Origin: Thermoanaerobaculia bacterium
Lineage (GTDB): Bacteria > Acidobacteriota > Thermoanaerobaculia > Multivoradales > UBA5704
Length of the DNA stretch: 64,000 nt
Direction of reading: 5' to 3'
NCBI GenBank assembly: GCA_035995205.1
Contig: DASYKS010000041.1
Coordinates: forward strand, 173,671 to 237,670
Shown here: positions 8,817 to 34,748 of the stretch, one piece after another
Numbering within the stretch: the first letter of the stretch is position 1
Layout: the number at the start of each line of letters is the position of its first letter
Notes under the pieces: model-generated
The model's input: the letters and a program-made list of their open reading frames with translations, nothing else
Database searches by the model: none
What the model was told of the DNA's origin: nothing
Position numbers and translations under genes: made by a program

Positions 8817-8819
8817 GGC

Positions 8820-9185
8820 TCACCGTGCCTCGAACGAAAGGCCGGCGCGCCGGCCGAGGTTCAGCAGGTCGCCCAACCGGGAAAGCTCCAGCTCCGCAAC
8901 CTGGCGGCCGAACGGGGTCAGTCGGTAGTGCCGGCGGCGCTCGTCCGAATTCGCGGCGATGTCTCGGCCGTCCAGCTCGACGATCAGCCCCTGTTCAAGC
9001 AGCCGGTGGAGCGTCGTGTAGAGCGTGCCGGGATTGAGCTTCGTCCGTCCGCCAGTCCGTTCCGCGACCTCCTGCATGACCGCATAACCATGCCGGTCTC
9101 CTTCGGCGAGCGCGATCAGGATGTGGAACGTGGCGGTCGGAAGCGGCAGGAGAGAGGCGGCGGAAGGATCGTCGTGAGCGGCCAT
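8820..9185 (-). CDS. PadR family transcriptional regulator
   Basis: …FHILIALAEGDRHGYAVMQEVAERTGGRTKLNPGTLYTTLHRLLEQGLI… is a winged-helix PadR signature. Confidence 0.85.
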   Translation of the reverse strand: MAAHDDPSAASLLPLPTATFHILIALAEGDRHGYAVMQEVAERTGGRTKLNPGTLYTTLHRLLEQGLIVELDGRDIAANSDERRRHYRLTPFGRQVAELELSRLGDLLNLGRRAGLSFEAR

Positions 9186-17187: not shown

Positions 17188-17430
17188 CTATCCAGCCACT
17201 CTTTTTCGGGGACGCTTCGCGGTCAACTTGGCCGTTCGCTCGGCCAACGTGAGCAGGCCAAGTAGGGCTTCGTTGACGGCTTCCGAGGTGGGAAACGCCT
17301 TGGCGACCACCGGATCGAGCAGAGCCACTGAGGTACCCTCGACCGCTTCGCGGTAGAACTTGCCGCGCTCCAGCTTCGTGAAGTCGGAGCGCTGATACGA
17401 TTCACGCATCTCATCCTTATCTTTCTTCAT
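17188..17430 (-). CDS. brnA: BrnA-type antitoxin
   Basis: A small ORF, MKKDKDEMRESYQRSDFTKLERGKFYREAVEG…, whose ATG overlaps the 3' end of the brnT-like gene. Confidence 0.6.
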   Translation of the reverse strand: MKKDKDEMRESYQRSDFTKLERGKFYREAVEGTSVALLDPVVAKAFPTSEAVNEALLGLLTLAERTAKLTAKRPRKRVAG

Positions 17431-17689
17431 AGAGCATCCTTTCCGTCCGCGTTGTACGCCGCGCGCTGATGATGCGGTTCGCACCCGGACGATATGAATG
17501 CGACACCGCCAGCAGTCGGCCTAACCGAGACACTCCGAAGGTGAGATAACGCGACTCACCGACGGAATGATCGGGGTCGGGACCCGTAGAAGCCAGATCG
17601 TCGAGAAAAACCGTCACGGCTTCGTCGAATGAGACCCCATGCTTGCGGACGTTCGCCGCCGCCTTGGCTTTGTCCCATTCGAATCTCAT
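17417..17689 (-). CDS. brnT: BrnT-type toxin (DUF497 ribonuclease)
   Basis: MRFEWDKAKAAANVRKHGVSFDEAVTVFLDD… is the DUF497/BrnT signature. It is the C-terminal part of the long antisense ORF-track frame 17417..20863. Confidence 0.7.
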   Translation of the reverse strand: MRFEWDKAKAAANVRKHGVSFDEAVTVFLDDLASTGPDPDHSVGESRYLTFGVSRLGRLLAVSHSYRPGANRIISARRTTRTERMLYEER

Positions 17690-17950
17690 CTTCGCGCCCG
17701 ATCTTCGCGCCCGCTCGCGGCTCAACCCGATAATTCTAGCTCTATCCCGCCCGATCCCCACCCCCACATCCGCCGCCCGGCGTGTTATCGTCCCGCCAGC
17801 CTTTTTGCTCTGGTCATTTCTCGCGCAGCTCGTCGGCGTCTTTCGCCGGCTCCGTCGGTTTCCCGCCTCGGCTCGAATTCCCTTGACTCGCGGCGGAACC
17901 CGCCTCGGTGCCGCGCTTCGCTTCGGCTTTGCGCAACAGGGGGTTCCTCG

Positions 17951-20857
17951 ATGAAGAAGCTCGTTGCAGTCCTCGTCGTCCTGGCGGTCGTTCTCGGGCT
18001 CGGTTCGTTCGCCGCTTTCGCTCAACAGACCGGTTCGATCGAGGGGAAGGTCACCTTGGCCGACGGCTCGGCGGTTGCCGGGGTCGCGGTCGAGGCTCGG
18101 TCCAACGTGCTGCCGCAACCGCGTACCACGACCACCAACGCCGCCGGCGAGTATCGGTTGCCGCTGCTTCCGCCGGGCGAGTACGAGATCACCTACACGC
18201 TCGGCGACCTCGCGCCCGCGAAGGAGAAGGCGTTGGTCCTCTTGCAGCAGATCACGGCCAAGAACGTCACGCTGTCGCCCGAGGCGGTGACCGAGGCGAT
18301 CGAGGTGGTGGCCGAAGGGGCGCCGACGATCGACACGACGTCCTCCGAGCTCAAGACCGCGATCACCGAAGGGACGATCGACGCGCTGCCGGTCGGCCAG
18401 GAGTATCGCGACCTGATCAAGCTGATCCCCGGTGTCCAGTACACCGAGGACAACGTGCGCGGCCCGAGCGCCGGGGGCAGCGGCCAGGACAACGCCTACC
18501 AGTTCGATGGCGTAAACGTCGCTCTGCCGCTGTTCGGCACCCTGTCGGCCGAGCCCTCGTCGCACGACATCGACCAGATCGCGATCGTCAAAGGCGGAGC
18601 CAACGCGGTCGATTTCAACCGCTCGGGAGGCTTCACCATCAACTCGGTGAGCAAGTCGGGCACCAACAGTTTCCACGGCCAGGCGAGCTACCAGATCCAG
18701 CCGAAGAGCACCACGAGCACGCGCGAGAACCAAGGGAACACTTCGGTCTTCGATGACGACAAGGATTGGGCGACGCTTTCGGCGGGCGGCCCGTTGGTCC
18801 GCGACCGCCTGTTCTTCTACGGCTCGTACTACCGGCCGACGGTGCAGAGGGAAAACACCGCGAACGCCTACGGCTCGGTGCCGGACTTCGAGAGCACCCG
18901 CGACGAGTACTTCGGCAAGTTGTCGTACACGCCGCTGCCGAACGTTTCGCTCAACGGCAGCTACCGCGACTCGTCGCGCGAGAACGACGTCGCCTCGGTC
19001 GGCGCGTTCGCCGCGGCCTCGACGTCGCTCGGTGAAGCGGCGACCCTCGGCATCGCGATCGCCGAAGGTTCGTGGATCTTGAACGACAAGAGCTTCGCGA
19101 GCTTCAAGTACACCGATTTCAAGAACGAGACCTCGTCGCGGCCGGATATTCAACTTGGCTTTACGCCCGGCTTCGGCCAGCGCCTCGACCTTGCGAGTCT
19201 CGAAACCCAAGGCCTGTTGAACGTGCCGTTGCCGATCGCCGGGCAGACCGCCTTCAACAATTTCATCGCCCCGCTCATCCAGCGCTACGGATTCGACCGG
19301 AACGGCGCACGGGCGGGGGGCGGCCAAGTCGGCGCCGGCAGCACGGAGAGCGACGACGATTTCTTCCGCCAGAGCTACCAGGCCGGCTGGAACTACCTGT
19401 TCGGCCAGAAGGCGACCCACGAGATCCACCTCGGCTACAAGTATTCGAAGGATGAGGAGGATCTGCAGCGGACCAGCAACGGCTTTGGCTCGATCACGGT
19501 TCCCGGCGGCCGGACCTCGTTCAACGGCAGGCCGATCTTCTTCGAGGCCGCGGTCGACCAGATGGGTCTCCCGGGCGGCGTGCCGCTGATCCATTCCGAG
19601 TTCGTCTCGCACAGCGTCGAGATCAACGACCAGATCCGGCTCGACAACTGGACGTTCAACCTCGGGGTGCTCGCGAGCAACGACGTGTTCTACGGCCAGG
19701 GGCTCAAGGAGACCTCCGGCAACCTCTCCGGCTTTGCGCTCGCGCCGGGGCACAAGTACAAGATGTACGACATCGACTTTGCCGACATGATCCAGCCGCG
19801 GGTGGGTGCCACCTGGGCCTACAACGGCCGCGACACGCTGTTCGTGAACTATGCGCGCTACAACCCGGCGGCCAGCTCGCTGCCTCGGGCCGCCGCTTGG
19901 GACAGGAACCTCGCGCGGACCATTCGCTTCTTCTTCGCCGCCGACGGCAGTTTCATCGGGAGCGATCCGCTCGCCTCTTCGTCGGGTAAATTCTTCGACG
20001 ACGATCTCGATCCGCGCAGCGTCGAGGAATACCTGATCGGCACGTCGCGGCAGCTCTCGGCCCGATGGGTCGGCCGGGTTCACGCCCGCTACCGCTACGC
20101 CACCAACTTCTGGGAAGACACCAACAACGACGCTCGGATCCTGTTCAACGCCCCTTCGGACATTCCGCACGAGCTGTACGTGCCGAACCTGGCCCAGGTG
20201 CAGCGCGAGATCGGTGGCTCCTCCTACGTGATCGCGGAGCTCGACGGCGCGTTTTCCAAGTACTACGAGGCGAGCGTCGAAAGCGAGTACCGGGGCAACA
20301 AGACCTATGTCCGCGGCTCCTACGTTTGGAGCCACTACTACGGCAACTTCGACCAGGACAACACGACGACCGACAACGACCTGGCGATCTTCGTCGGCTC
20401 TTCCAACCTTGCCGATGGCGCAGGGCGCCAACTGTGGGACAAGAAATACGGCAACCTGCGCGGCGACCGCCGCCACCAACTGAAGATCTACGGTTCGTAC
20501 GACCTGGCATGGAAGGCATCCGTCGGTGCGTTCGCGATCTACCAGTCCGGCCAGCCTTGGGAGACCTGGGACGTCGAGGTCTATCGCGCGCTCACCACCA
20601 GCACGAGCGACGTGAACCGGAATGCCGAACCGGCGGGCTCGCACACCACGGACCCTCACTACCAGATCGACCTCAACTACACGCAGAACTTCTCGTTCGG
20701 CCGCTATAACGTCCAACTGCGCGGCGACCTGTTCAACGTCACGAACAACCAGACCGGCTACAACATCCAGAACCAGAAGCACTCGGCCGGGTTTGGCACG
20801 CCCCGCACGTTCTACGACCCGAGACGGCTGCAGCTCGGGGTGAAGTTCGAGTTCTAA
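17951..20857 (+). CDS. TonB-dependent receptor with an N-terminal carboxypeptidase-regulatory-like domain
   Basis: Signal peptide MKKLVAVLVVLAVVLGLGSFAAFAQQ. GSIEGKVT…AGEYRL is a CarboxypepD_reg signature. The plug and barrel end with the terminal aromatic …LGVKFEF. Confidence 0.8.
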   Translation: MKKLVAVLVVLAVVLGLGSFAAFAQQTGSIEGKVTLADGSAVAGVAVEARSNVLPQPRTTTTNAAGEYRLPLLPPGEYEITYTLGDLAPAKEKALVLLQQITAKNVTLSPEAVTEAIEVVAEGAPTIDTTSSELKTAITEGTIDALPVGQEYRDLIKLIPGVQYTEDNVRGPSAGGSGQDNAYQFDGVNVALPLFGTLSAEPSSHDIDQIAIVKGGANAVDFNRSGGFTINSVSKSGTNSFHGQASYQIQPKSTTSTRENQGNTSVFDDDKDWATLSAGGPLVRDRLFFYGSYYRPTVQRENTANAYGSVPDFESTRDEYFGKLSYTPLPNVSLNGSYRDSSRENDVASVGAFAAASTSLGEAATLGIAIAEGSWILNDKSFASFKYTDFKNETSSRPDIQLGFTPGFGQRLDLASLETQGLLNVPLPIAGQTAFNNFIAPLIQRYGFDRNGARAGGGQVGAGSTESDDDFFRQSYQAGWNYLFGQKATHEIHLGYKYSKDEEDLQRTSNGFGSITVPGGRTSFNGRPIFFEAAVDQMGLPGGVPLIHSEFVSHSVEINDQIRLDNWTFNLGVLASNDVFYGQGLKETSGNLSGFALAPGHKYKMYDIDFADMIQPRVGATWAYNGRDTLFVNYARYNPAASSLPRAAAWDRNLARTIRFFFAADGSFIGSDPLASSSGKFFDDDLDPRSVEEYLIGTSRQLSARWVGRVHARYRYATNFWEDTNNDARILFNAPSDIPHELYVPNLAQVQREIGGSSYVIAELDGAFSKYYEASVESEYRGNKTYVRGSYVWSHYYGNFDQDNTTTDNDLAIFVGSSNLADGAGRQLWDKKYGNLRGDRRHQLKIYGSYDLAWKASVGAFAIYQSGQPWETWDVEVYRALTTSTSDVNRNAEPAGSHTTDPHYQIDLNYTQNFSFGRYNVQLRGDLFNVTNNQTGYNIQNQKHSAGFGTPRTFYDPRRLQLGVKFEF

Positions 20858-22130: not shown

Positions 22131-23303
22131 ATGTCCGATCTCATTCCTCGTTTCAACGAGTTTGGTTACTCCGCCGAAGGGGTCGCCGCGCGGCGCGGCT
22201 GGATCGAGCAGCGGACCGGCGCGGCTCTTCGTCATGTCGGCGCCTTCACTTTTCCGGCGGAAGAGATGCGCGGCAAGATCGAGAACCCGATCGGCGCGGT
22301 GCAGATGCCGCTCGGCGCGGCCGGTCCCCTGCGGGTCTGCGGCGAGCACGCGGAAGGGATCTTCTTCGTGCCAATGGCGACGACCGAAGGCGCTCTGGTG
22401 CGCTCCTACGAACGAGGGGCGATGGCGGTCACGCGAGCGGGCGGCGCGCACGTCCGGCTCTACGTCGACGAGAACCGGATCTCGCCGGTCTTCGTGTTCG
22501 CCGGTATCGCCGAGGCGGCGGCTTTCGCGCGCGAGCTACCCGAGCGGTTCGAAGCTTTGCGCGCCGAGGCCGAGGCGACCACCCGGCACGGCCGGTTGTT
22601 GCGCGTGGAGCCCTTTCCGCTGGGGCGCGAGGTGATGGTTCATTTTTGCTATTCGACCGGCGACGCGGGGGGAATGAACATGATCGCCCGCGCGACCGAT
22701 CGGGTCTGTCGTTGGTTGGTCGAGCAGAGCGCGGCATTGCGCTTCTACCTGTTCGCCGCGCTCGATTCGGAAAAGCACGCCAGCTCGTCGTTGTTTTTCG
22801 GCGGTAAGGGGAAGAAAGCCGTGGCCGGTGTCCGGCTGCCCGCTTCGCTGGTTCGGAACTATCTGGGCTCGACCCCGGAACAGATCCTGGAGCTTTGGCA
22901 CACCAACGTGCTCGCTCAGCTGCATGCCGGCGCTTCGACCTGCAACGCCCATCTGGCCAACGGGCTCGCCGCCCTGTTCATCGCCTGCGGCCAGGACGTC
23001 GCGAACATCGTGAACGCCTCGGTTGGGATCTTGCGCTTCGACATCGAGGCGGACGGCGCGCTGTTCGCAAGCGTCACCCTTCCTTCGCTCACCGTGGCGA
23101 CGGTCGGCGGCGGCACCCAGCAAGGGACCTCGCGCGAGTGTCTGGAGATGCTCGGCTGTCTCGGAGACGGCAAAGCCCCCCGCTTTGCCGAAATCGCCGC
23201 CGCGTTCCTGTTGGCGGGTGAAATCTCTCTGATGGCTGCGATCGCATCCGGCGAGTTGGTCGCGGCTCACGAAGCCTACGGTCGCAACCGGCCGGGGGGG
23301 TAA
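22131..23303 (+). CDS. HMG-CoA reductase, class I-type catalytic domain (soluble, no membrane anchor)
   Basis: …ENPIGAVQMPLGAAGPL…, …VPMATTEGALVRS…, …TGDAGGMNMI… and …ATVGGGTQ… match class I HMGR catalytic motifs. Confidence 0.8.
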   Translation: MSDLIPRFNEFGYSAEGVAARRGWIEQRTGAALRHVGAFTFPAEEMRGKIENPIGAVQMPLGAAGPLRVCGEHAEGIFFVPMATTEGALVRSYERGAMAVTRAGGAHVRLYVDENRISPVFVFAGIAEAAAFARELPERFEALRAEAEATTRHGRLLRVEPFPLGREVMVHFCYSTGDAGGMNMIARATDRVCRWLVEQSAALRFYLFAALDSEKHASSSLFFGGKGKKAVAGVRLPASLVRNYLGSTPEQILELWHTNVLAQLHAGASTCNAHLANGLAALFIACGQDVANIVNASVGILRFDIEADGALFASVTLPSLTVATVGGGTQQGTSRECLEMLGCLGDGKAPRFAEIAAAFLLAGEISLMAAIASGELVAAHEAYGRNRPGG

Positions 23304-27390: not shown

Positions 27391-27587
27391 CGTTCCTCCC
27401 GGTTGGTCTTTTCGAAAGGTAAAGGAAATGGGTGGGTTTGACCAGTGTTTTTCGTTCGCCGCCCTCGCGCTCCTTGACACTCCCCCACGAGCCGGGCTAC
27501 GTTGCCCCCGACCCTAGATCGGAAATCGTCGCTTCCTCCCTCGTGCTCTCATTCGCCGGGGCGGAAGCGTTCAAGGAGGATCGTATT

Positions 27588-28718
27588 ATGCCCTCTCGAT
27601 TGCGCGCCGCCTTGTGTTGGGTCGTCGTTCTCGCCGCCTTCTCGGTTCCCCCGAGCCTTCGGGCTCAAAATGACCCGGAGACAGCGCTTGCTCCGGCCGG
27701 GCAGCCCCTTTCGTCCGACATCGGGGACGCTCCCGCGCCGGCTCCTCTCGCCCAGCCCATTCCGCCGCCGTCGAGCTTGGCCGCGGTGATCGGAACGGAG
27801 CCCGCTCCCAACGATCCGGTGCTCCACCTCGTGACCTCGCACAACCAGACCTATCCGCATCGGGCCGGGCTCCACGACCGGGTGACGGTCGAGATCAAGA
27901 ACATCAACCAACTGCTCGCGTCGGTCGGCAACGACTGCTCGCGCCTGATCCTGTTCATCGACGGGGTTCCGCTCACCGGAACGGCTCCCGAATCGTGCAA
28001 TCCGCTGCTCGGACGGGTCCGCTTCGAGCTCGACCGCACCGAAGCCTCGGACAACGGCTGGCGCGCTCTGCTCGGCAGCCCTACCGGCTTCGTGCGCAAG
28101 GTTCCGGTAAGCATCGGGCCGACCGGCGGTTTTCCGATTTTCACCGCGGTCCGGGAATTCGAGCTGCGCCTGCTGCCCACCACCGGCTTTTACAGTTTTC
28201 TCGGCCTGCTCAGTCTGGCGCTCCTGGTTCTCCTCTGGCTCGCGAGACGCACGTCGCTGCTGCGCGACCCGGGTCCTCCGGGATCCCTCGGCGCCTTCAA
28301 CCTCGGGCGGATTCAGCTCGCGTTTTGGTTCTTCCTGGTGGTCTCCGCTTTCGTCTTCATTTGGCTGGTGACCGACGAGGTCGATTCCGTCACCGGCTCA
28401 GTGGTCGCGTTGCTCGGCATTGGCTCGGGCACGGCGCTCGGTTCGGCGATCATCGACAGCGACAAACGCGAGAACGCCGGGCAGACTGCTCCGCCGGCCC
28501 GCACCTCGTCCGGATTGATCCGCGACGTCTTGCGCGACGACCATGGGAACTTGAGCTTCTACCACTTCCAGCTCGCGGTCTGGACCCTGGTGCTCGGCAT
28601 CATCTTCTGCGCCTCGGTTTACGACCGCCTTTCCATGCCCCAGTTCAACGGTACGCTGCTCGCCCTGCTCGGCATCAGCTCCGGAACCTTCCTAGGAGCG
28701 AAGAGTCCGAAGGGGTAG
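27588..28718 (+). CDS. Hypothetical secreted/membrane protein
   Basis: A Shine-Dalgarno sequence (aaggagga) lies 7 nt before the ATG. It has a signal peptide MPSRLRAALCWVVVLAAFSVPPSLRAQ and three or four C-terminal TM helices. Confidence 0.5.
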   Translation: MPSRLRAALCWVVVLAAFSVPPSLRAQNDPETALAPAGQPLSSDIGDAPAPAPLAQPIPPPSSLAAVIGTEPAPNDPVLHLVTSHNQTYPHRAGLHDRVTVEIKNINQLLASVGNDCSRLILFIDGVPLTGTAPESCNPLLGRVRFELDRTEASDNGWRALLGSPTGFVRKVPVSIGPTGGFPIFTAVREFELRLLPTTGFYSFLGLLSLALLVLLWLARRTSLLRDPGPPGSLGAFNLGRIQLAFWFFLVVSAFVFIWLVTDEVDSVTGSVVALLGIGSGTALGSAIIDSDKRENAGQTAPPARTSSGLIRDVLRDDHGNLSFYHFQLAVWTLVLGIIFCASVYDRLSMPQFNGTLLALLGISSGTFLGAKSPKG

Positions 28719-28780
28719 GGGAGAGGAGGGGGAGAGCAAGGCTGAAGGCTCGTCCCATCGCAGGACACTCTCCGACTTTG

Positions 28781-29095
28781 CACCGTGGCATTGGAGATTG
28801 CACCGGTGCAACGGAGTTTTGTAGTGGTACGCCGCCGTTTTGCACAGGTGCGCTGGAGAATTGCAGGGGTGCCCCGGCATTTTGTACTCGTGCAATCCGT
28901 CTGTGCACATGTGCAATCTCGCAGTGCACTCGTGCAATCCGCCAGTGCACATGTGCGCTGCGATTTTGCAGTGGTGCGCCGGCATTTTGCACCTGTGCAA
29001 TCCGACATTGCACTTGTGCACAGCCGCAGTGCACACGTGCATTCCGATTTTGTAGTGGTGCACAGCCGCAGTGCACCTGTGCACAGCGCTGTGCA
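28781..29095. repeat. Phased tandem array of about 15 copies of a 21-bp palindromic unit (consensus TGCACnnGTGCAAnCCGnnnt)
   Basis: There is an exact 21-bp period over at least 14 units. The core is TGCAC-nn-GTGCA with a variable tail. All six frames are open across the array. Variation falls on positions that would be codon positions 1-2, not wobble positions. The array sits in the convergent gap between the 27588 gene and hxsC. Confidence 0.8.
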
Positions 29096-29338
29096 CCTGC
29101 CTCCCGCGGGATGCGGCCCGCGGCCAGAACGCGGCGGAGCGGATCCAAGAATCGGCGTACAAACAACAGGAAACAAGAGACTTCGGCCGAGATCCGATGC
29201 GTCGATCCCGGGGAACGCCGCGCTGCGTCCCGGATGCGATGCTCAAGCTCCCCCCTTAAACGCCCTTCATGATGGGGCCGCCCATCTGCCGCAGTCAAGG
29301 AAAGTGCCTGCATTCCCTAGGGGAGCGCCTTGGGTTGC

Positions 29339-30514
29339 CTAAGGGCGGATCGGGGTGGCGAGGAGCCGAAGGGTTTCTCGCCTTTGCACCGCGGAGGCGA
29401 AAAACCCGCCGCACTGGTTGCGCACAGTACAGCCTGTGCAAGCCGCGAGGTACTCGTTCTTCCAGTCGGAGATCGAGCGCCGGCAGAACCGCCAGAGACT
29501 TTTGGGCACGGCGCAAAGCGGATGGTTGTAGATCGACACGTGGAGACCCCGGGCAGCGAGATGGAGCGTCGCGGCCTCGAGCGCCTCGGCGTAGTCGCGC
29601 GGATCGATCCAGAGCGCGTCGAGGTTCTTGACCGCGAGGCCGATCGGTTCGAGCCCCATCAGCGCGATGTGGGCGGCAAAAGGAAAGTTTCGATAGATGA
29701 ATTCGGCGGTCGGCAGCAGGCGCTCGACCGTCATTTGATGAAGGACCACCCGGATCTCCACCGGAACGCCGAAGCGGCCGAGGTTTTGGAGGCCAATCAC
29801 GGTTTGGCCGAACGCGCCGGGCGCTTCGACGACGCGATCGTGCTCGACGTCCAAATCCGAGTAGAGCGGCACGCCGACCATGAGATCGGGATGCTCGATC
29901 TCGCCAAGCTTGCGCGCGAAGGAACCGTAGTAGAACAACCGGCCGTTCGAAAGGATGTGAAGCGCCGTCGCCGGGAGGAGATCACGGCAGCGTTCGACGA
30001 TTCGCAGCAGGTCGTCCCCGAGCAGCGTCGGCTCTCCCCCCGTGATCCCGAGCTCGCGTGGAATGTCGGACGGCGCGCCGCGAGCGATCAGCTCGATCAG
30101 CCGCAAGTGCTCGACGATCCGCTCGCGGTCGTCGATCTTCCTAGGCGGCTGCGAGCACATCACACAGTAACTGTTGCAGCGGTCGGTGGTAAAGATCGAA
30201 TTGTGAGGAGAGCCGGGCCGAAACAGAGTGCGCACGCTGCCGGTCGGCTGGAGGGCCACGATGTCGCCTGCCGAAAGGTGGTCCAGGAACCGGGCGCGCG
30301 AGATGGCCGGCACCGTCGTGGCTGCGTCGGGCTCTTCCCCGTCGGTGAGAATCCCTGCATAGCCCTTGAGGTCCGGGTCGCATTCGCCGTCGTGCAGCAG
30401 CCGCACCGTTTCTCCTCGCGCTTCGTGTTCGGTCGGCGCGAGCGAAATCCGGCCGAGTACGTTGGCCCGCAGATTGGGCGAGGCGTGGCCCTGGGTCTGG
30501 AGTCGGAGACTCAC
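29339..30514 (-). CDS. hxsC: Radical SAM enzyme, His-Xaa-Ser system maturase (HxsC-like; B/C assignment tentative)
   Basis: CNSYCVMC (CxxxCxxC) lies near residue 95. The GTG start overlaps the stop of the upstream radical-SAM gene (GTGA). The long Arg-rich N-terminal part of the ORF-track frame is rejected. Confidence 0.7.
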   Translation of the reverse strand: MSLRLQTQGHASPNLRANVLGRISLAPTEHEARGETVRLLHDGECDPDLKGYAGILTDGEEPDAATTVPAISRARFLDHLSAGDIVALQPTGSVRTLFRPGSPHNSIFTTDRCNSYCVMCSQPPRKIDDRERIVEHLRLIELIARGAPSDIPRELGITGGEPTLLGDDLLRIVERCRDLLPATALHILSNGRLFYYGSFARKLGEIEHPDLMVGVPLYSDLDVEHDRVVEAPGAFGQTVIGLQNLGRFGVPVEIRVVLHQMTVERLLPTAEFIYRNFPFAAHIALMGLEPIGLAVKNLDALWIDPRDYAEALEAATLHLAARGLHVSIYNHPLCAVPKSLWRFCRRSISDWKNEYLAACTGCTVRNQCGGFFASAVQRRETLRLLATPIRP

Positions 30515-32010
30515 GCGGGGACCTCTTCTTCGAATCGGGGAGTTGGCACCCCGGTCGCCCAACTCGTTAGCAAGTCGATCTCGAATCGATCTCCCGAGCG
30601 GAGGCGCTCGAAGAGGTGGCGAAGAATCCCCATGTTCTTGGCGCAGAAGGCGCTGGTCGGCCGATGGCCGATCGGGTCGCCCTGGGTGCGATGGTGGAAG
30701 ATCGGGTCGCCGCCGCAGAAGGGGAGGAAGGCGCACCGGTTGCAGCCGGGCAAAGCCTCCAAGACGGAGCTTGCGACCAGCGACCGGAGCGTCTCGCCGC
30801 CGAAGATTTCTTCGTACGAATCGCGGTGGACGTTGCCGAGGCGGAAGGTGAAATCGCCCATCTCGGCCAGCATGCGCGCCTCGTCCGAGGCGTAGACGTT
30901 GCCCTCGTAGTTGTAGACCACGGCGCCGATTCCGGCGCCTCCGGGAGATTGAAGATCCACGTAGTGCGTGGGAAACGGCATCAGCATCTTGGACAGGAGG
31001 ATCTGCGCGTACACCTCTCGGATCGGCGTCCCACGCCGGTTCCAATCGATGATCCGGTCGAGGGCGACGCGGTAGAAGTCCAAGAACTGAGAGGTCTGGT
31101 AGCGCGCCGCGGCCCCCGTTCGAACCGCGAAGCCGTACGGGCTGATCGAGCGCAGGAAAATCGAGTGAAACCCGAGCCGGACGTATTCGTCGACGATCTC
31201 CCGCGGCTGCGTCAGGCTTCTCTCGGTGGTCGTCATCAAGGCGGACACCCGATCGTGACCGAGCGCCTCCCGGGCGCGCGCAAGATTCCTTTCGACCAAA
31301 GCGTGGCTGTCGCGTCCCGGCCGAGGGCGGTTGGCATTATGGAGAGGCGCCGGCCCGTCGAGAGAGGTCGAGAGCAAGATGGACCGCTCCTTGAGATACG
31401 CGAGCATCTCGTCGTCGAGCGGAGCGAGGTTGGTCGCGATCACGAATTCGATCTGGCGGCTTTCGGTGCGATTGCGTTCGAGAACCCGCTCGACGATGAA
31501 ACGGATCAGGTCGAACCGCAGCAGCGGCTCGCCGCCCTGGATCTCGACCTTGAGCGTCGGAGAAGGGCTGCGAAACATCAGATCGATCGCCCGCTCCGCC
31601 GTCTCTTCGCTCATGTCCCAGCGGGAGCCCTCCTTGACGCGCGAGACCTGGCAATAAGGGCAAGAGTGATCGCAACGCAGGGTGACCACGAACAGGTGCA
31701 GCCCGGTGAAACCCGCAAGGAAACTTTTGTTCGTCCGGTAGCGCGTCGCGAGCAGATCGATCGCGAAGGTGGGGTCGCCGTCCGAAAGGAACAGTTTGGA
31801 CTTGAGCTCTCGATAGCCGGGCGAGGTCGGCGGCAGCCGGTGCCCGATCAGAGCCTCGAAGCTCGGCGCATCCAGGAATGCCGAATCTCCCACGTCATTG
31901 ACCAGCAAGACCTCTCGCTCGTTCCAGCGCTCGAAGCGAAAGGGAAGGAGTCGATAGGCCGGAGTCGAAGACTCAGCGAAGTCGGCCGATGCCAAGGGGA
32001 TCCTCGCCAT
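30511..32010 (-). CDS. hxsB: Radical SAM/SPASM-type enzyme, His-Xaa-Ser system maturase (HxsB-like)
   Basis: CDHSCPYC (CxxxCxxC) plus a C-terminal Cys-rich SPASM-like region (…LPGCNRCAFLPFCGG…). It is co-operonic with hxsA/hxsD. Confidence 0.75.
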   Translation of the reverse strand: MARIPLASADFAESSTPAYRLLPFRFERWNEREVLLVNDVGDSAFLDAPSFEALIGHRLPPTSPGYRELKSKLFLSDGDPTFAIDLLATRYRTNKSFLAGFTGLHLFVVTLRCDHSCPYCQVSRVKEGSRWDMSEETAERAIDLMFRSPSPTLKVEIQGGEPLLRFDLIRFIVERVLERNRTESRQIEFVIATNLAPLDDEMLAYLKERSILLSTSLDGPAPLHNANRPRPGRDSHALVERNLARAREALGHDRVSALMTTTERSLTQPREIVDEYVRLGFHSIFLRSISPYGFAVRTGAAARYQTSQFLDFYRVALDRIIDWNRRGTPIREVYAQILLSKMLMPFPTHYVDLQSPGGAGIGAVVYNYEGNVYASDEARMLAEMGDFTFRLGNVHRDSYEEIFGGETLRSLVASSVLEALPGCNRCAFLPFCGGDPIFHHRTQGDPIGHRPTSAFCAKNMGILRHLFERLRSGDRFEIDLLTSWATGVPTPRFEEEVPA

Positions 32011-32329
32011 AGTCGCCCTCGTCGCGGAGAGAATCCAGAAGATTTCCCTCGGCGAAGGCCTGGGCCACGATCAGGTCGCGAATCGGCGCCATCTCCAAAT
32101 CGAGAGCCGTCCGAATCTCCTGGTCGATCAGCTCGTTGCGGAAGATTCCGGCGATCGACGGGTCGAGCGTTCCCTGCCGCGCACGGAAACCGACGACCAG
32201 CAGGTTCGGGTTCCCCGGATCGCGCGAGAGCGAGACGTAGGCTCGGTCGGTGAGTCTGTAACAGGCCTCGAAGATCGCGCGCCGCGAGTGAAGGGCTGTA
32301 TCGACCGAGACCTCGATCTCGTCGTTCAT
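31973..32329 (-). CDS. hxsD: Small His-Xaa-Ser system-associated protein (HxsD-like)
   Basis: A 118-aa protein. …IFRNELIDQEIRTAL… resembles the LLNDYxLRE signature of the HxsD family as I remember it. Its start overlaps the hxsA stop by 4 nt. Confidence 0.6.
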   Translation of the reverse strand: MNDEIEVSVDTALHSRRAIFEACYRLTDRAYVSLSRDPGNPNLLVVGFRARQGTLDPSIAGIFRNELIDQEIRTALDLEMAPIRDLIVAQAFAEGNLLDSLRDEGDYGEDPLGIGRLR

Positions 32330-33057
32330 TTCGTGTTTTTCGCCGGGTCGATCGTGAACCGCAGCGCGACGCGCCTGTGGCTCTCATACGTCCAGTTGAC
32401 CACGACCTTCTGGCCGACGTGGAGGGGGAAGGCTTGCGGGGCGATCGCGAGAAGCTGGTCGAGCTGGATTTTCAGCTCGCTCGGTGTGTACACGACGATT
32501 TCCACGGTCGGCGCGTAGTAGAAATCCTCCACAAGGCCCGAGGCGAGCTTGGCGGTCACCTTCCTCTCTTTCAGGTCGATCGCCTCGATCGTCACCGAGG
32601 TATCGATCCCCACGTGGGCTCCGCCCGGCGAGAACGGCCTCGGCTTGACCGGAGGCGCGGGCGGTTCGGGCGTGGCTCTGGGGGTGTAGAGCGGAGCTGG
32701 ATCGGATCGGGGAGTCGGCCGACTCGGGGCTGGCGAGGGGCTTCCGCCCGAGCCGGAGTAGTGCGAAGCGTGCGAGCTATGCGAAGAGTGAGAGCTGTGC
32801 GATCCATGACCGGAAGACCGCTTGAGCCCCAAGCCGCCGAGCCGGAGGACGAGCTTGCCCGGCTTGCCTCGCCGGTCGCGGCTCTCCAGGATGGGCTCGG
32901 CGGTCGGCGCATGCCTCTCGACGGTTGCTGCCCCGGCGTCGACGTTCGTGCCCAGGCCGAGCACTCCGAGGCCCGCGACCGCCGTGCGGCGGAGGAGCCG
33001 ACCCCACGAGGCGAATCGCTTGGCGGGGATCTCACGTCGATCTTCGGGTCCGGGCAT
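32326..33057 (-). CDS. hxsA: His-Xaa-Ser repeat protein (HxsA-like putative precursor/substrate)
   Basis: An N-terminal signal-like segment is followed by …SSGHGSHSSHSSHSSHASHYSGSGG…, which is six consecutive His-Xaa-Ser triplets. A Pro-rich linker and a C-terminal folded domain follow. Confidence 0.75.
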   Translation of the reverse strand: MPGPEDRREIPAKRFASWGRLLRRTAVAGLGVLGLGTNVDAGAATVERHAPTAEPILESRDRRGKPGKLVLRLGGLGLKRSSGHGSHSSHSSHSSHASHYSGSGGSPSPAPSRPTPRSDPAPLYTPRATPEPPAPPVKPRPFSPGGAHVGIDTSVTIEAIDLKERKVTAKLASGLVEDFYYAPTVEIVVYTPSELKIQLDQLLAIAPQAFPLHVGQKVVVNWTYESHRRVALRFTIDPAKNTK

Positions 33058-33224
33058 CGCGTTCCTGGACAGATGTCCTGAAGGAAAACGCGAGGTCGGC
33101 GCCTAGAACGGCTCACCTGCCGCAACCTTCCCCCGCCCGTCCGCGTACCAAGTCCCGAGGCTCTCACGCCCATTTCGGCCCGGCCGTCCGGCCGCCGGCC
33201 TGATCTTGCTTTTAGGAGAACGGT

Positions 33225-34748
33225 ATGACCAGGAAGTCCTTCGTGTTCACCGCCTTGCTGCTGTTTTCGACCGCACTGGCTCGCGCGGAGGGTGCGCCCG
33301 CCGCGGCGGGGGAGGCGAAGCCCACTCCGAAGTCCGAGCAGTCGGTCACCCAACACAGCCTCGCGATCGACGGCAAGGCCTTCGCCTATACCGCGACGGC
33401 CGGGACGTTGATCGTCCGGAACGGCAAGGACGAGCCGGTCGCGAGCATGGGTTACACCGCGTACACGAAGAAGGACGCGGATCTGGCGAACCGGCCGATC
33501 ACCTTCGCGTACAACGGCGGCCCGGGCTCGTCGTCGATCTGGCTGCACATGGGGGCGCTTGGGCCCCGTCGGGTGGTGACCGTCGATTCCGGCCCGACGC
33601 CGCCGCCTCCCTATGACGTGGTGGACAACCCGTGGAGCGTGATCGACAAGACCGACCTGGTGATGATCGATCCGGTCGGCACGGGCTTCAGCCGTGCGGT
33701 GGGCGATGCCAAGGACAAGGACTTCTGGGGCGTCGATCAGGACATCGAGTCGATCAGCCGGTTCATCAAGGAGTACGTCTCGACCAACGGGCGTTGGCGC
33801 TCGCCGAAGTTCCTGCTTGGCGAAAGCTATGGCTCGACCCGCTCCGGCGGCATCGCGAAGTATCTCGAAACCGAAGTGAACATGGGGCTGAACGGCGTGA
33901 TCCTGGTTTCGGTGGCGCTCGACATCGAGGCGATCTTCGCTTGGCCGGGCAACGACCGGCCGTATCCGCTGATCCTCCCTTCGTTCGCCGCGGTGGCCGC
34001 GTTTCACAAGGCGTTGCCCAATCCGCCGGGAGAGCTGGAACCGTTTCTCGACGAAGTCCGCGCTTTCGCCCTGGGCGAATACTCGGCGGCGCTCGCGAAA
34101 GGCGATCGCCTGAGCGATCCCGAGCGCGACGCCCTGGCCGAGAAGCTCCACCGCTATACGGGGCTCTCTGCCGACTTTTGGAAGCGCGCCAAGTTCCGCG
34201 TGCGCGAGTCGCAGTTCACCCAGGAGCTGCTGCGCGGGAAGGGCGAAGTGGTCGGCCGGCTCGACGCGCGATTCCTCGGCCGTTCCTATGATCAGCTGGC
34301 CGAAGAGGCGGACTACGACCCGCAGTCCGCGGCGATCTCCGCCGCCTTCACTTCGGCGCTTTTCGACTACCTGCACAACGACCTGAAATTCGGCGACGGC
34401 AAGACCTACAACGTGTCCAGCGACCAGGCCGGACGTTCCTGGGACTGGAAGCACAACACCGGCTGGTTCGTCCCGGTGCCGATTCCCAACACCGGCATCG
34501 ACCTCGGCGAAGCGATGGTCTACAACCCGAACCTGCGCCTGCTGGTGCTCAACGGGCTGTACGACCTCGCGACGCCGTTCTTTGCGACCGAGTCGATGAT
34601 CGACCATCTCGGCCTGCCCGCCGACCTGCGCTCGCACGTCGAGATGAAGTACTACCCGGCCGGCCATATGATGTACCTGCACGAGCCGTCGCTTAAAGCT
34701 TGGAAGGCGGACATCGCGGCGTTCATCGACGGCGCGAGCCACAAGTAG
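33225..34748 (+). CDS. Secreted serine carboxypeptidase (peptidase S10 family)
   Basis: Signal peptide. …LLGESYGS… is the catalytic Ser motif. Overall length and order are S10-like. Confidence 0.8.
   Translation: MTRKSFVFTALLLFSTALARAEGAPAAAGEAKPTPKSEQSVTQHSLAIDGKAFAYTATAGTLIVRNGKDEPVASMGYTAYTKKDADLANRPITFAYNGGPGSSSIWLHMGALGPRRVVTVDSGPTPPPPYDVVDNPWSVIDKTDLVMIDPVGTGFSRAVGDAKDKDFWGVDQDIESISRFIKEYVSTNGRWRSPKFLLGESYGSTRSGGIAKYLETEVNMGLNGVILVSVALDIEAIFAWPGNDRPYPLILPSFAAVAAFHKALPNPPGELEPFLDEVRAFALGEYSAALAKGDRLSDPERDALAEKLHRYTGLSADFWKRAKFRVRESQFTQELLRGKGEVVGRLDARFLGRSYDQLAEEADYDPQSAAISAAFTSALFDYLHNDLKFGDGKTYNVSSDQAGRSWDWKHNTGWFVPVPIPNTGIDLGEAMVYNPNLRLLVLNGLYDLATPFFATESMIDHLGLPADLRSHVEMKYYPAGHMMYLHEPSLKAWKADIAAFIDGASHK

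What the first reader, a model, noticed from the sequence alone, without database searches (positions are those of the whole stretch)
29339..33057. Complete four-gene His-Xaa-Ser (Hxs) radical-SAM peptide-maturation operon with the genes overlapping end to end
On the minus strand there are four consecutive genes whose start and stop codons overlap at three junctions (ATGA/GTGA at two, a 38-nt overlap at hxsD/hxsB). The first encodes a signal-peptide protein whose only striking feature is …GHGSHSSHSSHSSHASHYS… (six perfect His-Xaa-Ser triplets). The second encodes a 118-aa protein, and the third and fourth encode two radical-SAM enzymes (CDHSCPYC and CNSYCVMC). The larger enzyme has a C-terminal Cys-rich SPASM-like tail. 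This matches the HxsA/HxsD/HxsB/HxsC set known only from comparative genomics. To my knowledge no product, modification chemistry or physiological role has been shown experimentally. The presence of two radical-SAM enzymes implies a two-step modification of the His/Ser repeat, such as cross-linking or a metal-binding cofactor-like structure. The partner system is intact here, not a fragment, with tight translational coupling and a secreted substrate.
Basis: partly seen in the sequence, partly recalled or inferred. Interest (0 to 1): 0.8.

Follow-up and report, generated by a model that had tools for sequence, protein, structure and literature searches.

The report
Variant His-Xaa-Ser (Hxs) radical-SAM operon
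This is an intact four-gene Hxs operon, a family shown in 2026 to block phage DNA entry in E. coli, but here from an Acidobacteriota lineage with a different gene order and a small beta-barrel (OB-fold) domain in place of the cell-wall-binding domain.

Summary
Four overlapping minus-strand genes, hxsA-hxsD-hxsB-hxsC (33057..29339), encode a signal-like protein with six HxS triplets, a 118-aa HxsD and two radical-SAM enzymes. HxsB, HxsC and HxsD pass NCBIfam equivalog cut-offs. The HxS tract is invariant in 23 homologues.

The claim that no function is known is outdated. Li et al. 2026 (PMC13128918) showed that E. coli HXS is an antiphage system. There, HxsB/C/D process HxsA and HxsA carries a +8 Da modification; mature HxsA acts in the periplasm and impedes phage DNA entry.

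The window copy is not the canonical type:
- HxsA fails every NCBIfam HxsA model.
- It lacks the peptidoglycan-binding domain that is essential in E. coli. It has a Pro-rich linker and a confidently predicted CusF-like OB-fold instead.
- Gene order is A-D-B-C, not D-B-C-A.
- The maturases are 34% identical to a Klebsiella system and about 50% identical to HxsA2-type systems.
- Relatives found are Acidobacteriota/Thermoanaerobaculia MAGs.

Best reading: a divergent Hxs effector-maturation cassette, probably an envelope antiphage barrier with a different targeting domain. It is a new variant of a known kind, of moderate interest.

The parts
33058..33224 (.). Divergent intergenic region between hxsA and a secreted S10 peptidase gene; presumed promoter region of the hxs operon
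   Evidence: Sequence. AGGA lies 6 nt upstream of the hxsA ATG. No sigma-70 consensus hit was found here, so the promoter is inferred, not shown.
32326..33057 (-). hxsA: 243-aa precursor/effector (leader with signal-like segment, HxS repeat, Pro-rich linker, OB-fold domain)
   Evidence: TIGR03979 scores 55.5 bits, below the cut-off of 121.65. About 30 full-length homologues have no Pfam domain.
32944..32994 (-). Signal-like hydrophobic segment of HxsA (aa 22-38, LRRTAVAGLGVLGLGTN) after a charged N-terminus with a twin arginine
   Evidence: Hydropathy peak at aa 30-34. The hydrophobic segment is conserved in the family; RR occurs at that position only in the window, P0001-P0004 and P0006. Not tested with SignalP or TatP.
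32839..32856 (-). KLVLRL motif (aa 68-73), candidate recognition/processing element of the leader
   Evidence: L69 is nearly invariant and L71 invariant. An LV(L/I)x(L/P) motif lies 10-16 residues before the first His in the HxsA types where it can be recognised. In Klebsiella/E. coli it falls inside residues 23-47, which the paper shows are required for defence.
32755..32808 (-). Six His-Xaa-Ser triplets (aa 84-101: HGS HSS HSS HSS HAS HYS); the last, invariant SHYS is the candidate modification site
   Evidence: By analogy with the +8 Da modification on the last repeat in E. coli; this is inference.
32611..32754 (-). Gly/Ser then Pro-rich linker (aa 102-149)
   Evidence: Sequence. Predicted disordered, pLDDT 50-69.
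32338..32610 (-). C-terminal OB-fold (CusF-like) beta-barrel domain (aa 150-240), in place of the PG_binding_1 domain of canonical HxsA
31973..32329 (-). hxsD: 118-aa accessory protein (partner of HxsC in E. coli)
   Evidence: TIGR03976 58.6 bits, cut-off 50. A C-terminal tail, NLLD..RDEGDY.EDP.GIG.RR, is conserved in this clade only.
30511..32010 (-). hxsB: radical-SAM maturase (CX3CX2C at C113/117/120; auxiliary Cys 423/426/432/456)
   Evidence: TIGR03978 612 bits. Pfam Radical_SAM hit. The Cys residues mutated in E. coli are conserved.
29339..30514 (-). hxsC: radical-SAM maturase (C113/117/120; auxiliary Cys 334/359/362/368), GTG start
   Evidence: TIGR03977 372 bits. Relatives align from residue 1. 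Cys conservation shown.

Best explanation
This is a complete, translationally coupled hxsA-hxsD-hxsB-hxsC cassette from a Thermoanaerobaculia-like (Acidobacteriota) genome. It belongs to the Hxs radical-SAM protein-maturation family but is an unclassified subtype.

Shown here:
- HxsB, HxsC and HxsD are equivalog-level members of the family.
- Every Cys whose mutation abolishes or reduces HxsA processing in E. coli is conserved.
- HxsA has the family's leader motif and HxS array.
- HxsA carries a Pro-rich linker and a CusF-like OB-fold instead of a peptidoglycan-binding domain.

Inferred from the E. coli HXS work:
1. In the cytoplasm, HxsC (bound to HxsD) and HxsB use [4Fe-4S]/SAM radical chemistry to modify the HxS array. 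The invariant last repeat, SHYS, is the likely site.
2. HxsB, HxsC and HxsD are also needed for removal of the leader around the KLVLRL motif.
3. [quoted passage not shown] The most likely role is a barrier to incoming phage DNA.
4. The OB-fold supplies a localisation or binding function different from the peptidoglycan anchoring of the canonical effector.
For: - Family membership: with a Klebsiella positive control.
- Operon anatomy and overlaps.
- Repeat and KLVLRL motif invariant in 24 sequences.
- A-D-B-C order conserved in eight related loci.
- Conservation of HxsB C117/C120/C423/C426 and HxsC C117/C120/C359/C362, which correspond to the E. coli mutants C98/C101/C399/C402 and C105/C108/C342/C345: with the paper.
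- Experimental function of the family (defence, processing, +8 Da, periplasmic effector, HxsC-HxsD complex): PMC13128918.
- OB-fold.
- The leader motif at fixed spacing lies inside the region required in E. coli.
Against: - The defence role is transferred from a system whose maturases are only 34% identical.
- The peptidoglycan-binding domain, shown to be essential in E. coli, is absent.
- The window's repeats contain no Arg or Lys. The E. coli model invokes basic residues in the repeats.
- The OB domain is not basic in the window copy, with net charge 0.
- Neighbouring genes give no hit to PADLOC defence models. No copy was found in IMG/VR.
- No experiment exists for any non-proteobacterial Hxs system.
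Confidence: 0.6

Rival explanations
1. It is a periplasmic metal-binding or metal-homeostasis protein. The rSAM-modified His-rich array together with a CusF-like OB domain would bind or buffer Cu, Ag, Zn or Ni in the envelope rather than act against phages.
For: - Distant sequence relatives of the domain are CusF_Ec/DUF5666 repeat proteins.
- The same OB domain is fused to a His/Cys-rich YHYH module in P0168 and P0211.
- His repeats are classical metal ligands.
Against: - The CusF ligand set (His, two Met, Trp) is not conserved. The window's OB domain has no Met, and no His is conserved in the family.
- Pfam CusF_Ec does not match the domain: 1 of 23 members hits at E 0.023.
- No metal-resistance genes are adjacent.
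- The only experimental data for the family point to phage defence.
Confidence: 0.15
2. It is a RiPP-type natural-product pathway. HxsA would be a precursor whose modified HxS core is released as a small secreted peptide, for example a His-to-Ser cross-linked, triceptide-like product.
For: - The maturases are closest (about 50% identity) to HxsA2-type systems. Their 91-96-aa precursors end with the HxS array, like leader-core RiPP precursors.
- HxS fits the aromatic-X-X three-residue pattern used by cyclophane-forming rSAM enzymes, some of which cross-link His C2 (PMC11499958 abstract).
- HxsB gives weak hits to peptide maturases.
Against: - A conserved, folded 90-aa domain and a 45-aa linker follow the repeat.
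- No protease or exporter gene is conserved in the eight loci.
- HxsB scores to cyclophane, sactipeptide and ranthipeptide families are far below their cut-offs.
- In E. coli the product is a ~170-residue protein with +8 Da, not -2 Da per repeat.
Confidence: 0.1
3. It is another envelope function unrelated to phages or metals, such as adhesion, cell-envelope organisation or stress protection. The HxS module would be a generic rSAM-matured unit attached to different targeting domains.
For: - HxS-repeat proteins occur with at least six other C-terminal modules: PG_binding_1, PG_binding_2, CHRD, PEGA, Sel1, fasciclin, and a ~200-aa domain in P0027, P0032 and P0033.
- The window's genomic context is housekeeping and is syntenic in close relatives.
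Against: No positive evidence supports any specific alternative. The one tested member of the family is a defence system.
Confidence: 0.14
4. The HxS tract is a chance low-complexity run and the gene cluster is a coincidence.
For: None beyond the simple composition of the tract.
Against: - The repeat is invariant across 24 homologues with 27-76% overall identity.
- It is always followed by hxsD, hxsB and hxsC.
- E-values reach 5e-184.
Confidence: 0.01

Closest known systems
E. coli/Klebsiella HXS antiphage system (hxsD-hxsB-hxsC-hxsA; Li et al., Nat Commun 2026, PMC13128918; NCBIfam TIGR03976-TIGR03979)
   Same: - Four components: two rSAM enzymes, HxsD, and an HxS-repeat protein with an N-terminal export/leader region.
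- Both rSAM Cys clusters are conserved.
- The LV(L/I)x(L/P) leader motif sits at the same spacing from the repeat.
- A Gly/Ser stretch follows the repeat.
- The genes are tightly packed.
   Different: - Gene order is A-D-B-C rather than D-B-C-A.
- HxsB and HxsC are only 34% identical.
- HxsA fails TIGR03979 (55.5 vs 121.65 bits), whereas Klebsiella HxsA passes at 162.8.
- There is no PG_binding_1 domain. A Pro-rich linker and OB-fold take its place.
- There are six repeats without Arg/Lys, ending in HYS, rather than five repeats with HRS, ending in SHRSS.
- The host is Acidobacteriota, whereas 99.7% of known systems are in Pseudomonadota.
HxsA2-type Hxs systems (NCBIfam NF038296; e.g. Nostoc sp. 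C057 plasmid, hxsA2-hxsD-hxsB-hxsC, locus L006)
   Same: - Same A-D-B-C order.
- Closest maturases among those compared: HxsB 49-52%, HxsC 45-50%, HxsD 31% identity.
- The repeat ends in HYS.
   Different: - HxsA2 is a 91-96-aa protein that ends 3 residues after the repeat.
- The window's HxsA continues for 142 residues (linker plus OB-fold).
- The window's HxsA scores 34.2 bits, below the cut-off of 48.
CusF/SilF periplasmic Cu(I)/Ag(I) chaperones (Pfam PF11604) and DUF5666 beta-barrel repeats
   Same: Small five-stranded OB-type beta-barrel in a secreted protein. These are the best Foldseek matches, with distant profile-level relatives.
   Different: 12-17% identity. The metal ligands are not conserved. 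There is no significant Pfam match.
rSAM/SPASM peptide maturases with solved structures (CteB 5WGG, anSME 4K36-4K39)
   Same: Radical-SAM core with CX3CX2C and a C-terminal auxiliary Cys cluster. These are the closest solved sequences to HxsB.
   Different: Only the rSAM core aligns (aa 110-243). HxsB has 4 rather than 7 tail Cys. HxsC has no solved relative at E<=1e-3.

Membership tests
Hxs system (NCBIfam TIGR03976-TIGR03979) | HxsB equivalog (TIGR03978, cut-off 370 bits) | tested here: met
   612.4 bits, full-length match 1-466/466
Hxs system (NCBIfam TIGR03976-TIGR03979) | HxsC equivalog (TIGR03977, cut-off 267.9 bits) | tested here: met
   371.7 bits, 2-291/292
Hxs system (NCBIfam TIGR03976-TIGR03979) | HxsD equivalog (TIGR03976, cut-off 50 bits) | tested here: met
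   58.6 bits. The Tyr of the LYW motif is kept (Y24). LLNDYxLRE is divergent, reading FRNELIDQE.
Hxs system (NCBIfam TIGR03976-TIGR03979) | HxsA equivalog (TIGR03979, cut-off 121.65 bits) | tested here: not met
   55.5 bits, covering only profile positions 12-105 of 190. The Klebsiella control scores 162.8.
Hxs system (NCBIfam TIGR03976-TIGR03979) | Tandem His-Xaa-Ser repeats in a protein encoded next to the two rSAM genes, conserved in orthologues | tested here: met
   Six triplets in the window; 5-8 in 24 homologues, with invariant His and Ser columns. The genes are adjacent in eight loci.
HXS antiphage system as characterised in E. coli (PMC13128918) | Peptidoglycan-binding domain in HxsA (mutating it abolishes defence) | tested here: not met
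   No Pfam hit. Canonical HxsA proteins carry PF01471. The model shows an OB-fold instead.
HXS antiphage system as characterised in E. coli (PMC13128918) | Gene order hxsD-hxsB-hxsC-hxsA (99.6% of systems) | tested here: not met
   The order here is A-D-B-C. The canonical order was confirmed in Klebsiella locus L007.
HXS antiphage system as characterised in E. coli (PMC13128918) | Cys ligands of both Fe-S clusters in HxsB and HxsC that are required for HxsA processing | tested here: met
   All eight mutated positions align to Cys residues in the window proteins.
HXS antiphage system as characterised in E. coli (PMC13128918) | Basic residues within the HxS repeats and an SHRSS last repeat carrying +8 Da | tested here: not met
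   The window repeats are HGS, HSS x3, HAS, HYS, with no Arg or Lys. The last repeat is SHYSG. The modification itself cannot be tested here.
HXS antiphage system as characterised in E. coli (PMC13128918) | N-terminal signal peptide and periplasmic location of HxsA | tested here: inconclusive
   A hydrophobic segment at aa 24-38 follows RR. No signal-peptide predictor was available.
HXS antiphage system as characterised in E. coli (PMC13128918) | Protection against phage by blocking DNA entry | not testable with these tools
   Requires an experiment. Context gives no support: there are no PADLOC hits in neighbouring genes.
HxsA2 subtype (NF038296) | Short precursor ending with the repeat; score at or above 48 bits | tested here: not met
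   34.2 bits on the repeat only. 142 residues follow the repeat.
SPASM-domain rSAM enzymes | Seven-Cys CX9-15GX4C...CX2CX5CX3C...C tail binding two auxiliary clusters | tested here: not met
   HxsB has four tail Cys, arranged CX2CX5C...X23...C. There is no Pfam SPASM hit at E<=0.01. This is consistent with one auxiliary cluster.
CusF-like metallochaperones (PF11604) | OB-fold with a conserved His/Met/Met/Trp Cu(I)/Ag(I) site | tested here: not met
   The fold matches. No Met is present and no His is conserved. There is no Pfam match.
Three-residue cyclophane (triceptide) rSAM maturases | Enzyme belongs to a cyclophane-forming family and the substrate has aromatic-X-X motifs | tested here: not met
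   HxS fits the motif pattern. HxsB scores only 48-63 bits against YhhB, GrrM, AmcB and FxsB models whose cut-offs are 310-445.

The most novel reading that the evidence does not exclude
The OB-fold HxsA and its A-D-B-C cassette define an unclassified Hxs subtype, found so far only in Acidobacteriota genomes and unassigned metagenome contigs. More broadly, the rSAM-matured HxS array may be a portable module that evolution has attached to at least seven different C-terminal domains: PG-binding, PEGA, CHRD, Sel1, fasciclin, a ~200-aa beta domain, and OB. If so, peptidoglycan anchoring is not intrinsic to Hxs function. The OB-type effector would then act on a different periplasmic partner (DNA, a glycan or a protein) or serve a non-defence role.
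Probability: 0.45. Interest if true: 0.55.

Novelty: new variant of a known kind. Interest (0 to 1): 0.4.

Why it matters
The Hxs family has just been given a function: a periplasmic, rSAM-matured protein that stops phage DNA entry. That rests on one enterobacterial subtype, and the chemistry of the +8 Da modification is unsolved.

This locus shows that the maturation machinery and HxS array persist in a distant phylum while the part of the effector that is essential in E. coli, the peptidoglycan anchor, is replaced by an OB-fold. That gives a natural test of which parts of the published model are general: the repeat, the leader motif and the Fe-S ligands. It also shows which part is subtype-specific, namely the anchor.

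Current NCBIfam models do not reach their cut-offs on this HxsA subtype, so it would probably be annotated as a hypothetical protein. As a single locus it is an incremental extension, not a new kind of system.

Tried and rejected
1. Chance low complexity: rejected by invariance of the repeat.

3. CusF-type metal site: ligands not conserved.

4. Defence-island context: PADLOC 2023 has no Hxs model, and none of 10 neighbouring ORFs hit any defence model. No relative was found in IMG/VR.

5. S10 peptidase upstream as a dedicated processing protease: it is syntenic only in the two closest relatives, L001 and L002, and absent next to the other loci. It is not part of the system.

6. A possible fifth gene downstream of hxsC. 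The 21-nt TGCAC array can be read as His-Xaa-Cys heptads on the operon strand. This was rejected as coding for three reasons. No protein homologues were found. A homologous DNA element in L022 is conserved equally in all frames. That element sits next to unrelated genes.

7. The afdb50 fold library was unavailable.

8. A global pairwise alignment of the window's HxsD with Klebsiella HxsD failed because of divergence. Membership rests on the HMM score.

Full report
**1. Observation**

The minus strand of window 29339-33057 carries four consecutive genes:
- hxsA 33057..32326 (243 aa).
- hxsD 32329..31973 (118 aa). It shares ATGA with the hxsA stop.
- hxsB 32010..30511 (499 aa). It overlaps hxsD by 38 nt.
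- hxsC 30514..29339 (391 aa). Its GTG start sits in GTGA with the hxsB stop.

The mechanical ORF list extends hxsC to a TTG at 31045. Relatives align from residue 1 of the GTG-started protein, so 30514 is the real start.

Codon-position GC (about 0.65/0.46/0.82) is the same as in neighbouring genes.

HxsA contains HGS-HSS-HSS-HSS-HAS-HYS at aa 84-101. HxsB and HxsC each carry CX3CX2C at C113/C117/C120.

**2. Family assignment**

Against NCBIfam:
- HxsB scores 612 bits on TIGR03978 (cut-off 370).
- HxsC scores 372 on TIGR03977 (cut-off 268).
- HxsD scores 58.6 on TIGR03976 (cut-off 50).
- HxsA reaches only 55.5 bits on TIGR03979 (cut-off 121.65), and the match stops after the repeat.
- HxsA2, HxsA3 and HxsA4 models match only the repeat and are also below their cut-offs.

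A Klebsiella HxsA used as a positive control passes TIGR03979 at 162.8 bits over the full length.

So three components are bona fide members, and the substrate/effector is a different subtype.

**3. What is already known**

A literature search found Li et al., Nat Commun 2026 (PMC13128918; read). Its findings:
- An E. coli hxsD-hxsB-hxsC-hxsA operon restricts 110 of 113 coliphages. It does so without abortive infection or loss of adsorption, by delaying genome entry. T7 escape mutations map to the ejectosome proteins gp15 and gp16.
- HxsA has a signal peptide, five HxS repeats and a peptidoglycan-binding domain. Both the signal peptide and the PG-binding region are required.
- HxsB, HxsC and HxsD are all required for an N-terminal cleavage of HxsA.
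- A +8 Da modification maps to the last repeat (SHRSS).
- HxsC binds HxsD.
- Periplasmic HxsA binds DNA in vitro.
- 99.7% of systems are in Pseudomonadota, and 99.6% have the order D-B-C-A.

The exact chemistry remains unsolved.

**4. How this copy differs**

*Gene order and relatedness.* The order here is A-D-B-C. I confirmed the canonical order on a Klebsiella plasmid (L007). The A-first order also occurs in a PGAP-annotated Nostoc hxsA2-hxsD-hxsB-hxsC locus (L006). By BLASTP, the window's HxsB and HxsC are 34% identical to the Klebsiella proteins. They are 45-52% identical to the Nostoc and Novosphingobium (HxsA2-like) systems.

*Fe-S ligands.* The Klebsiella numbering coincides with the residues mutated in the paper. 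All of them align to Cys in the window proteins:
- HxsB C117/C120 and C423/C426.
- HxsC C117/C120 and C359/C362.

Each enzyme has exactly four conserved C-terminal Cys, which is consistent with one auxiliary cluster each. This is not a full seven-Cys SPASM motif, and it is not restricted to the larger enzyme.

**5. The HxsA subtype**

A search of 5.8 billion proteins gave about 30 full-length homologues of 196-252 aa with no Pfam domain. All weaker hits match only through the repeat. Most of those are canonical HxsA proteins with PF01471 (PG_binding_1). A few carry CHRD, PEGA, Sel1 or fasciclin domains, or a ~200-aa C-terminal region.

In a 24-sequence alignment:
- SHxSHxSHxSHYS is invariant.
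- L71 is invariant; R60 and L69 (the RxxxxxxxKLVLRL region) are nearly invariant.
- P211 and W222 in the C-terminal domain are nearly invariant.
- Repeat number varies from 5 to 8, and all but one of the 24 arrays end in HYS.

An LV(L/I)x(L/P) motif lies 10-16 residues before the first His in the OB-type, canonical, PEGA, Sel1, fasciclin and HxsA2 proteins examined. In Klebsiella/E. coli it falls within residues 23-47, which the paper showed to be required. I infer that it is the leader element recognised by the maturation or processing machinery.

**6. The C-terminal domain**

AlphaFold2 with the family alignment gave pLDDT >90 for aa 150-240. The model has six strands and one short helix there, and a disordered rest.

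- Foldseek ranked CusF first (E 2e-4 to 5e-4, target TM 0.63-0.74). SilF, cold-shock proteins and IF1 followed.

There is no significant Pfam or PDB sequence match.

A profile of the domain, searched against 1.84 billion representative proteins, found 418 hits at E<=1e-3, of which 108 were at E<=1e-10. The listed top 150 fall into four groups:
- HxS-plus-OB proteins of 195-277 aa.
- Truncated gene calls of the same proteins.
- A few proteins that fuse the domain to a YHYH His/Cys module.
- Long secreted proteins with 3-11 partial repeats that Pfam calls CusF_Ec or DUF5666.

The domain is therefore a CusF/DUF5666-like periplasmic OB barrel.

The CusF metal ligands are not conserved: the window domain has no Met and no conserved His. 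Its net charge is 0 in the window and -1 to +8 in the family. Neither a metal site nor a strongly basic DNA-binding surface is evident.

**7. Distribution and context**

In one genome per GTDB species, the only loci encoding relatives were three Thermoanaerobaculia MAGs and one uncultured Acidobacteriota genome. The window's S10 peptidase is 88% identical to that of L001 and its HxsA 71% identical, so the window comes from a related organism.

A-D-B-C order holds in L002-L004 and in the metagenomic loci L008-L011.

Some distant members have an extra HxsD-like ORF between hxsD and hxsB. It is absent here.

Flanking genes differ between loci, apart from the S10 peptidase in the two closest relatives. 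In the window they are housekeeping-like: S10 peptidase, HMG-CoA reductase, an AstE/AspA-like enzyme and a histidine kinase. None hits PADLOC, and no relative was found in IMG/VR.

The cassette is self-contained. Its context neither supports nor excludes a defence role.

**8. Mechanism proposed**

Shown here: an intact, probably translationally coupled operon; enzyme family membership; conserved Fe-S ligands; a conserved leader motif and repeat; an OB-fold C-terminus.

Inferred from the E. coli work:
1. HxsC-HxsD and HxsB act on the HxS array in the cytoplasm. The likely site is the invariant terminal SHYS.
2. They are also needed for leader removal.
3. The mature protein (about 170 aa: HxS array, Pro-rich spacer, OB barrel) is exported and acts in the envelope.

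I consider an antiphage barrier the most likely role (about 0.6). The OB-fold would provide a different anchoring or ligand-binding function.

The rivals are a periplasmic metal-binding role (0.15), a released RiPP peptide (0.1) and some other envelope function (0.14).

**9. Verdict**

The finding is real and correctly named, but its premise of an uncharacterised system no longer holds. What remains of interest is that this is an unclassified, OB-fold-bearing HxsA subtype with non-canonical gene order, in a phylum where Hxs is rare. It lacks the domain that is essential in the only tested system.

That makes it a new variant of a known kind, with interest 0.4.

Noticed in passing
window 28778-29099 (between the hxsC stop at 29339 and the end of the convergent + strand gene 27432..28718): There are fifteen in-register 21-nt units, TGCACNNGTGCANNCNGNNNT. 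Each contains the palindrome TGCAC-N2-GTGCA. GTGCACNNGTGCA occurs 6 times in the window, all here, against 0.01 expected. One frame on the operon strand reads as His-Xaa-Cys heptads, but that ORF has no protein homologues. A homologous element (74% identity over 515 bp) occurs in a soil metagenome contig (L022) next to unrelated genes, and it is conserved equally in all reading frames. The array is therefore probably a non-coding repeat element or an array of binding sites spaced at two helical turns. Similar 21-bp-phased arrays exist in 18 other unrelated metagenome contigs. Its function is unknown.
   Followed up: partly
L008 8090-8362; L010 1873-2157; L004 about 8600-8900: In more distant OB-type Hxs loci an extra ~90-aa ORF lies between hxsD and hxsB. 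It resembles HxsD (LY...FLNxLL motifs) and gives a weak hit to NCBIfam HxsD-like NF038315 (28 bits, cut-off 41). It is absent from the window and its closest relatives, where hxsD overlaps hxsB by 38 nt.
   Followed up: partly
proteins P0027, P0032, P0033, P0046, P0072, P0081, P0086: HxS-repeat proteins with the same leader motif carry other C-terminal modules: CHRD, PEGA, Sel1, fasciclin, and an unassigned ~200-aa region. This suggests the HxS array is a portable module. P0032 and P0072, the two tested, fall below the NCBIfam HxsA cut-offs.
   Followed up: partly
proteins P0168, P0211: The same OB domain is fused, after a signal peptide and a linker, to a YHYH His/Cys-rich module (NF033223) instead of HxS repeats. 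This is a second case of the barrel being paired with a His-rich N-terminal element.
   Followed up: partly
window 31973-32070 (C-terminus of hxsD): HxsD of this clade has a conserved acidic/Gly tail, NLLD..RD(D/E)GDY.EDP.GIG.RR. The 90-aa Klebsiella HxsD and the Nostoc HxsD lack it. Its last codons lie in the 38-nt overlap with hxsB.
   Followed up: no
window 33225-34748 (+): A secreted S10 serine carboxypeptidase is divergently transcribed from hxsA. It is syntenic with the hxs operon only in the two closest relatives (L001, L002), so it is probably not part of the system.
   Followed up: yes
window about 17417-17700 (-), overlapping the 5' part of a TonB-dependent-receptor-like gene 17639-20857 (+): A BrnT ribonuclease toxin domain (PF04365, E 3e-23) lies at the C-terminal end of a long, probably spurious minus-strand ORF. 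A small type II toxin gene probably lies here.
   Followed up: no
window 22131-23303 (+): There is a full-length HMG-CoA reductase (PF00368, E 2e-100). No Rfam family reaches its gathering score anywhere in the 64-kb window.
   Followed up: no
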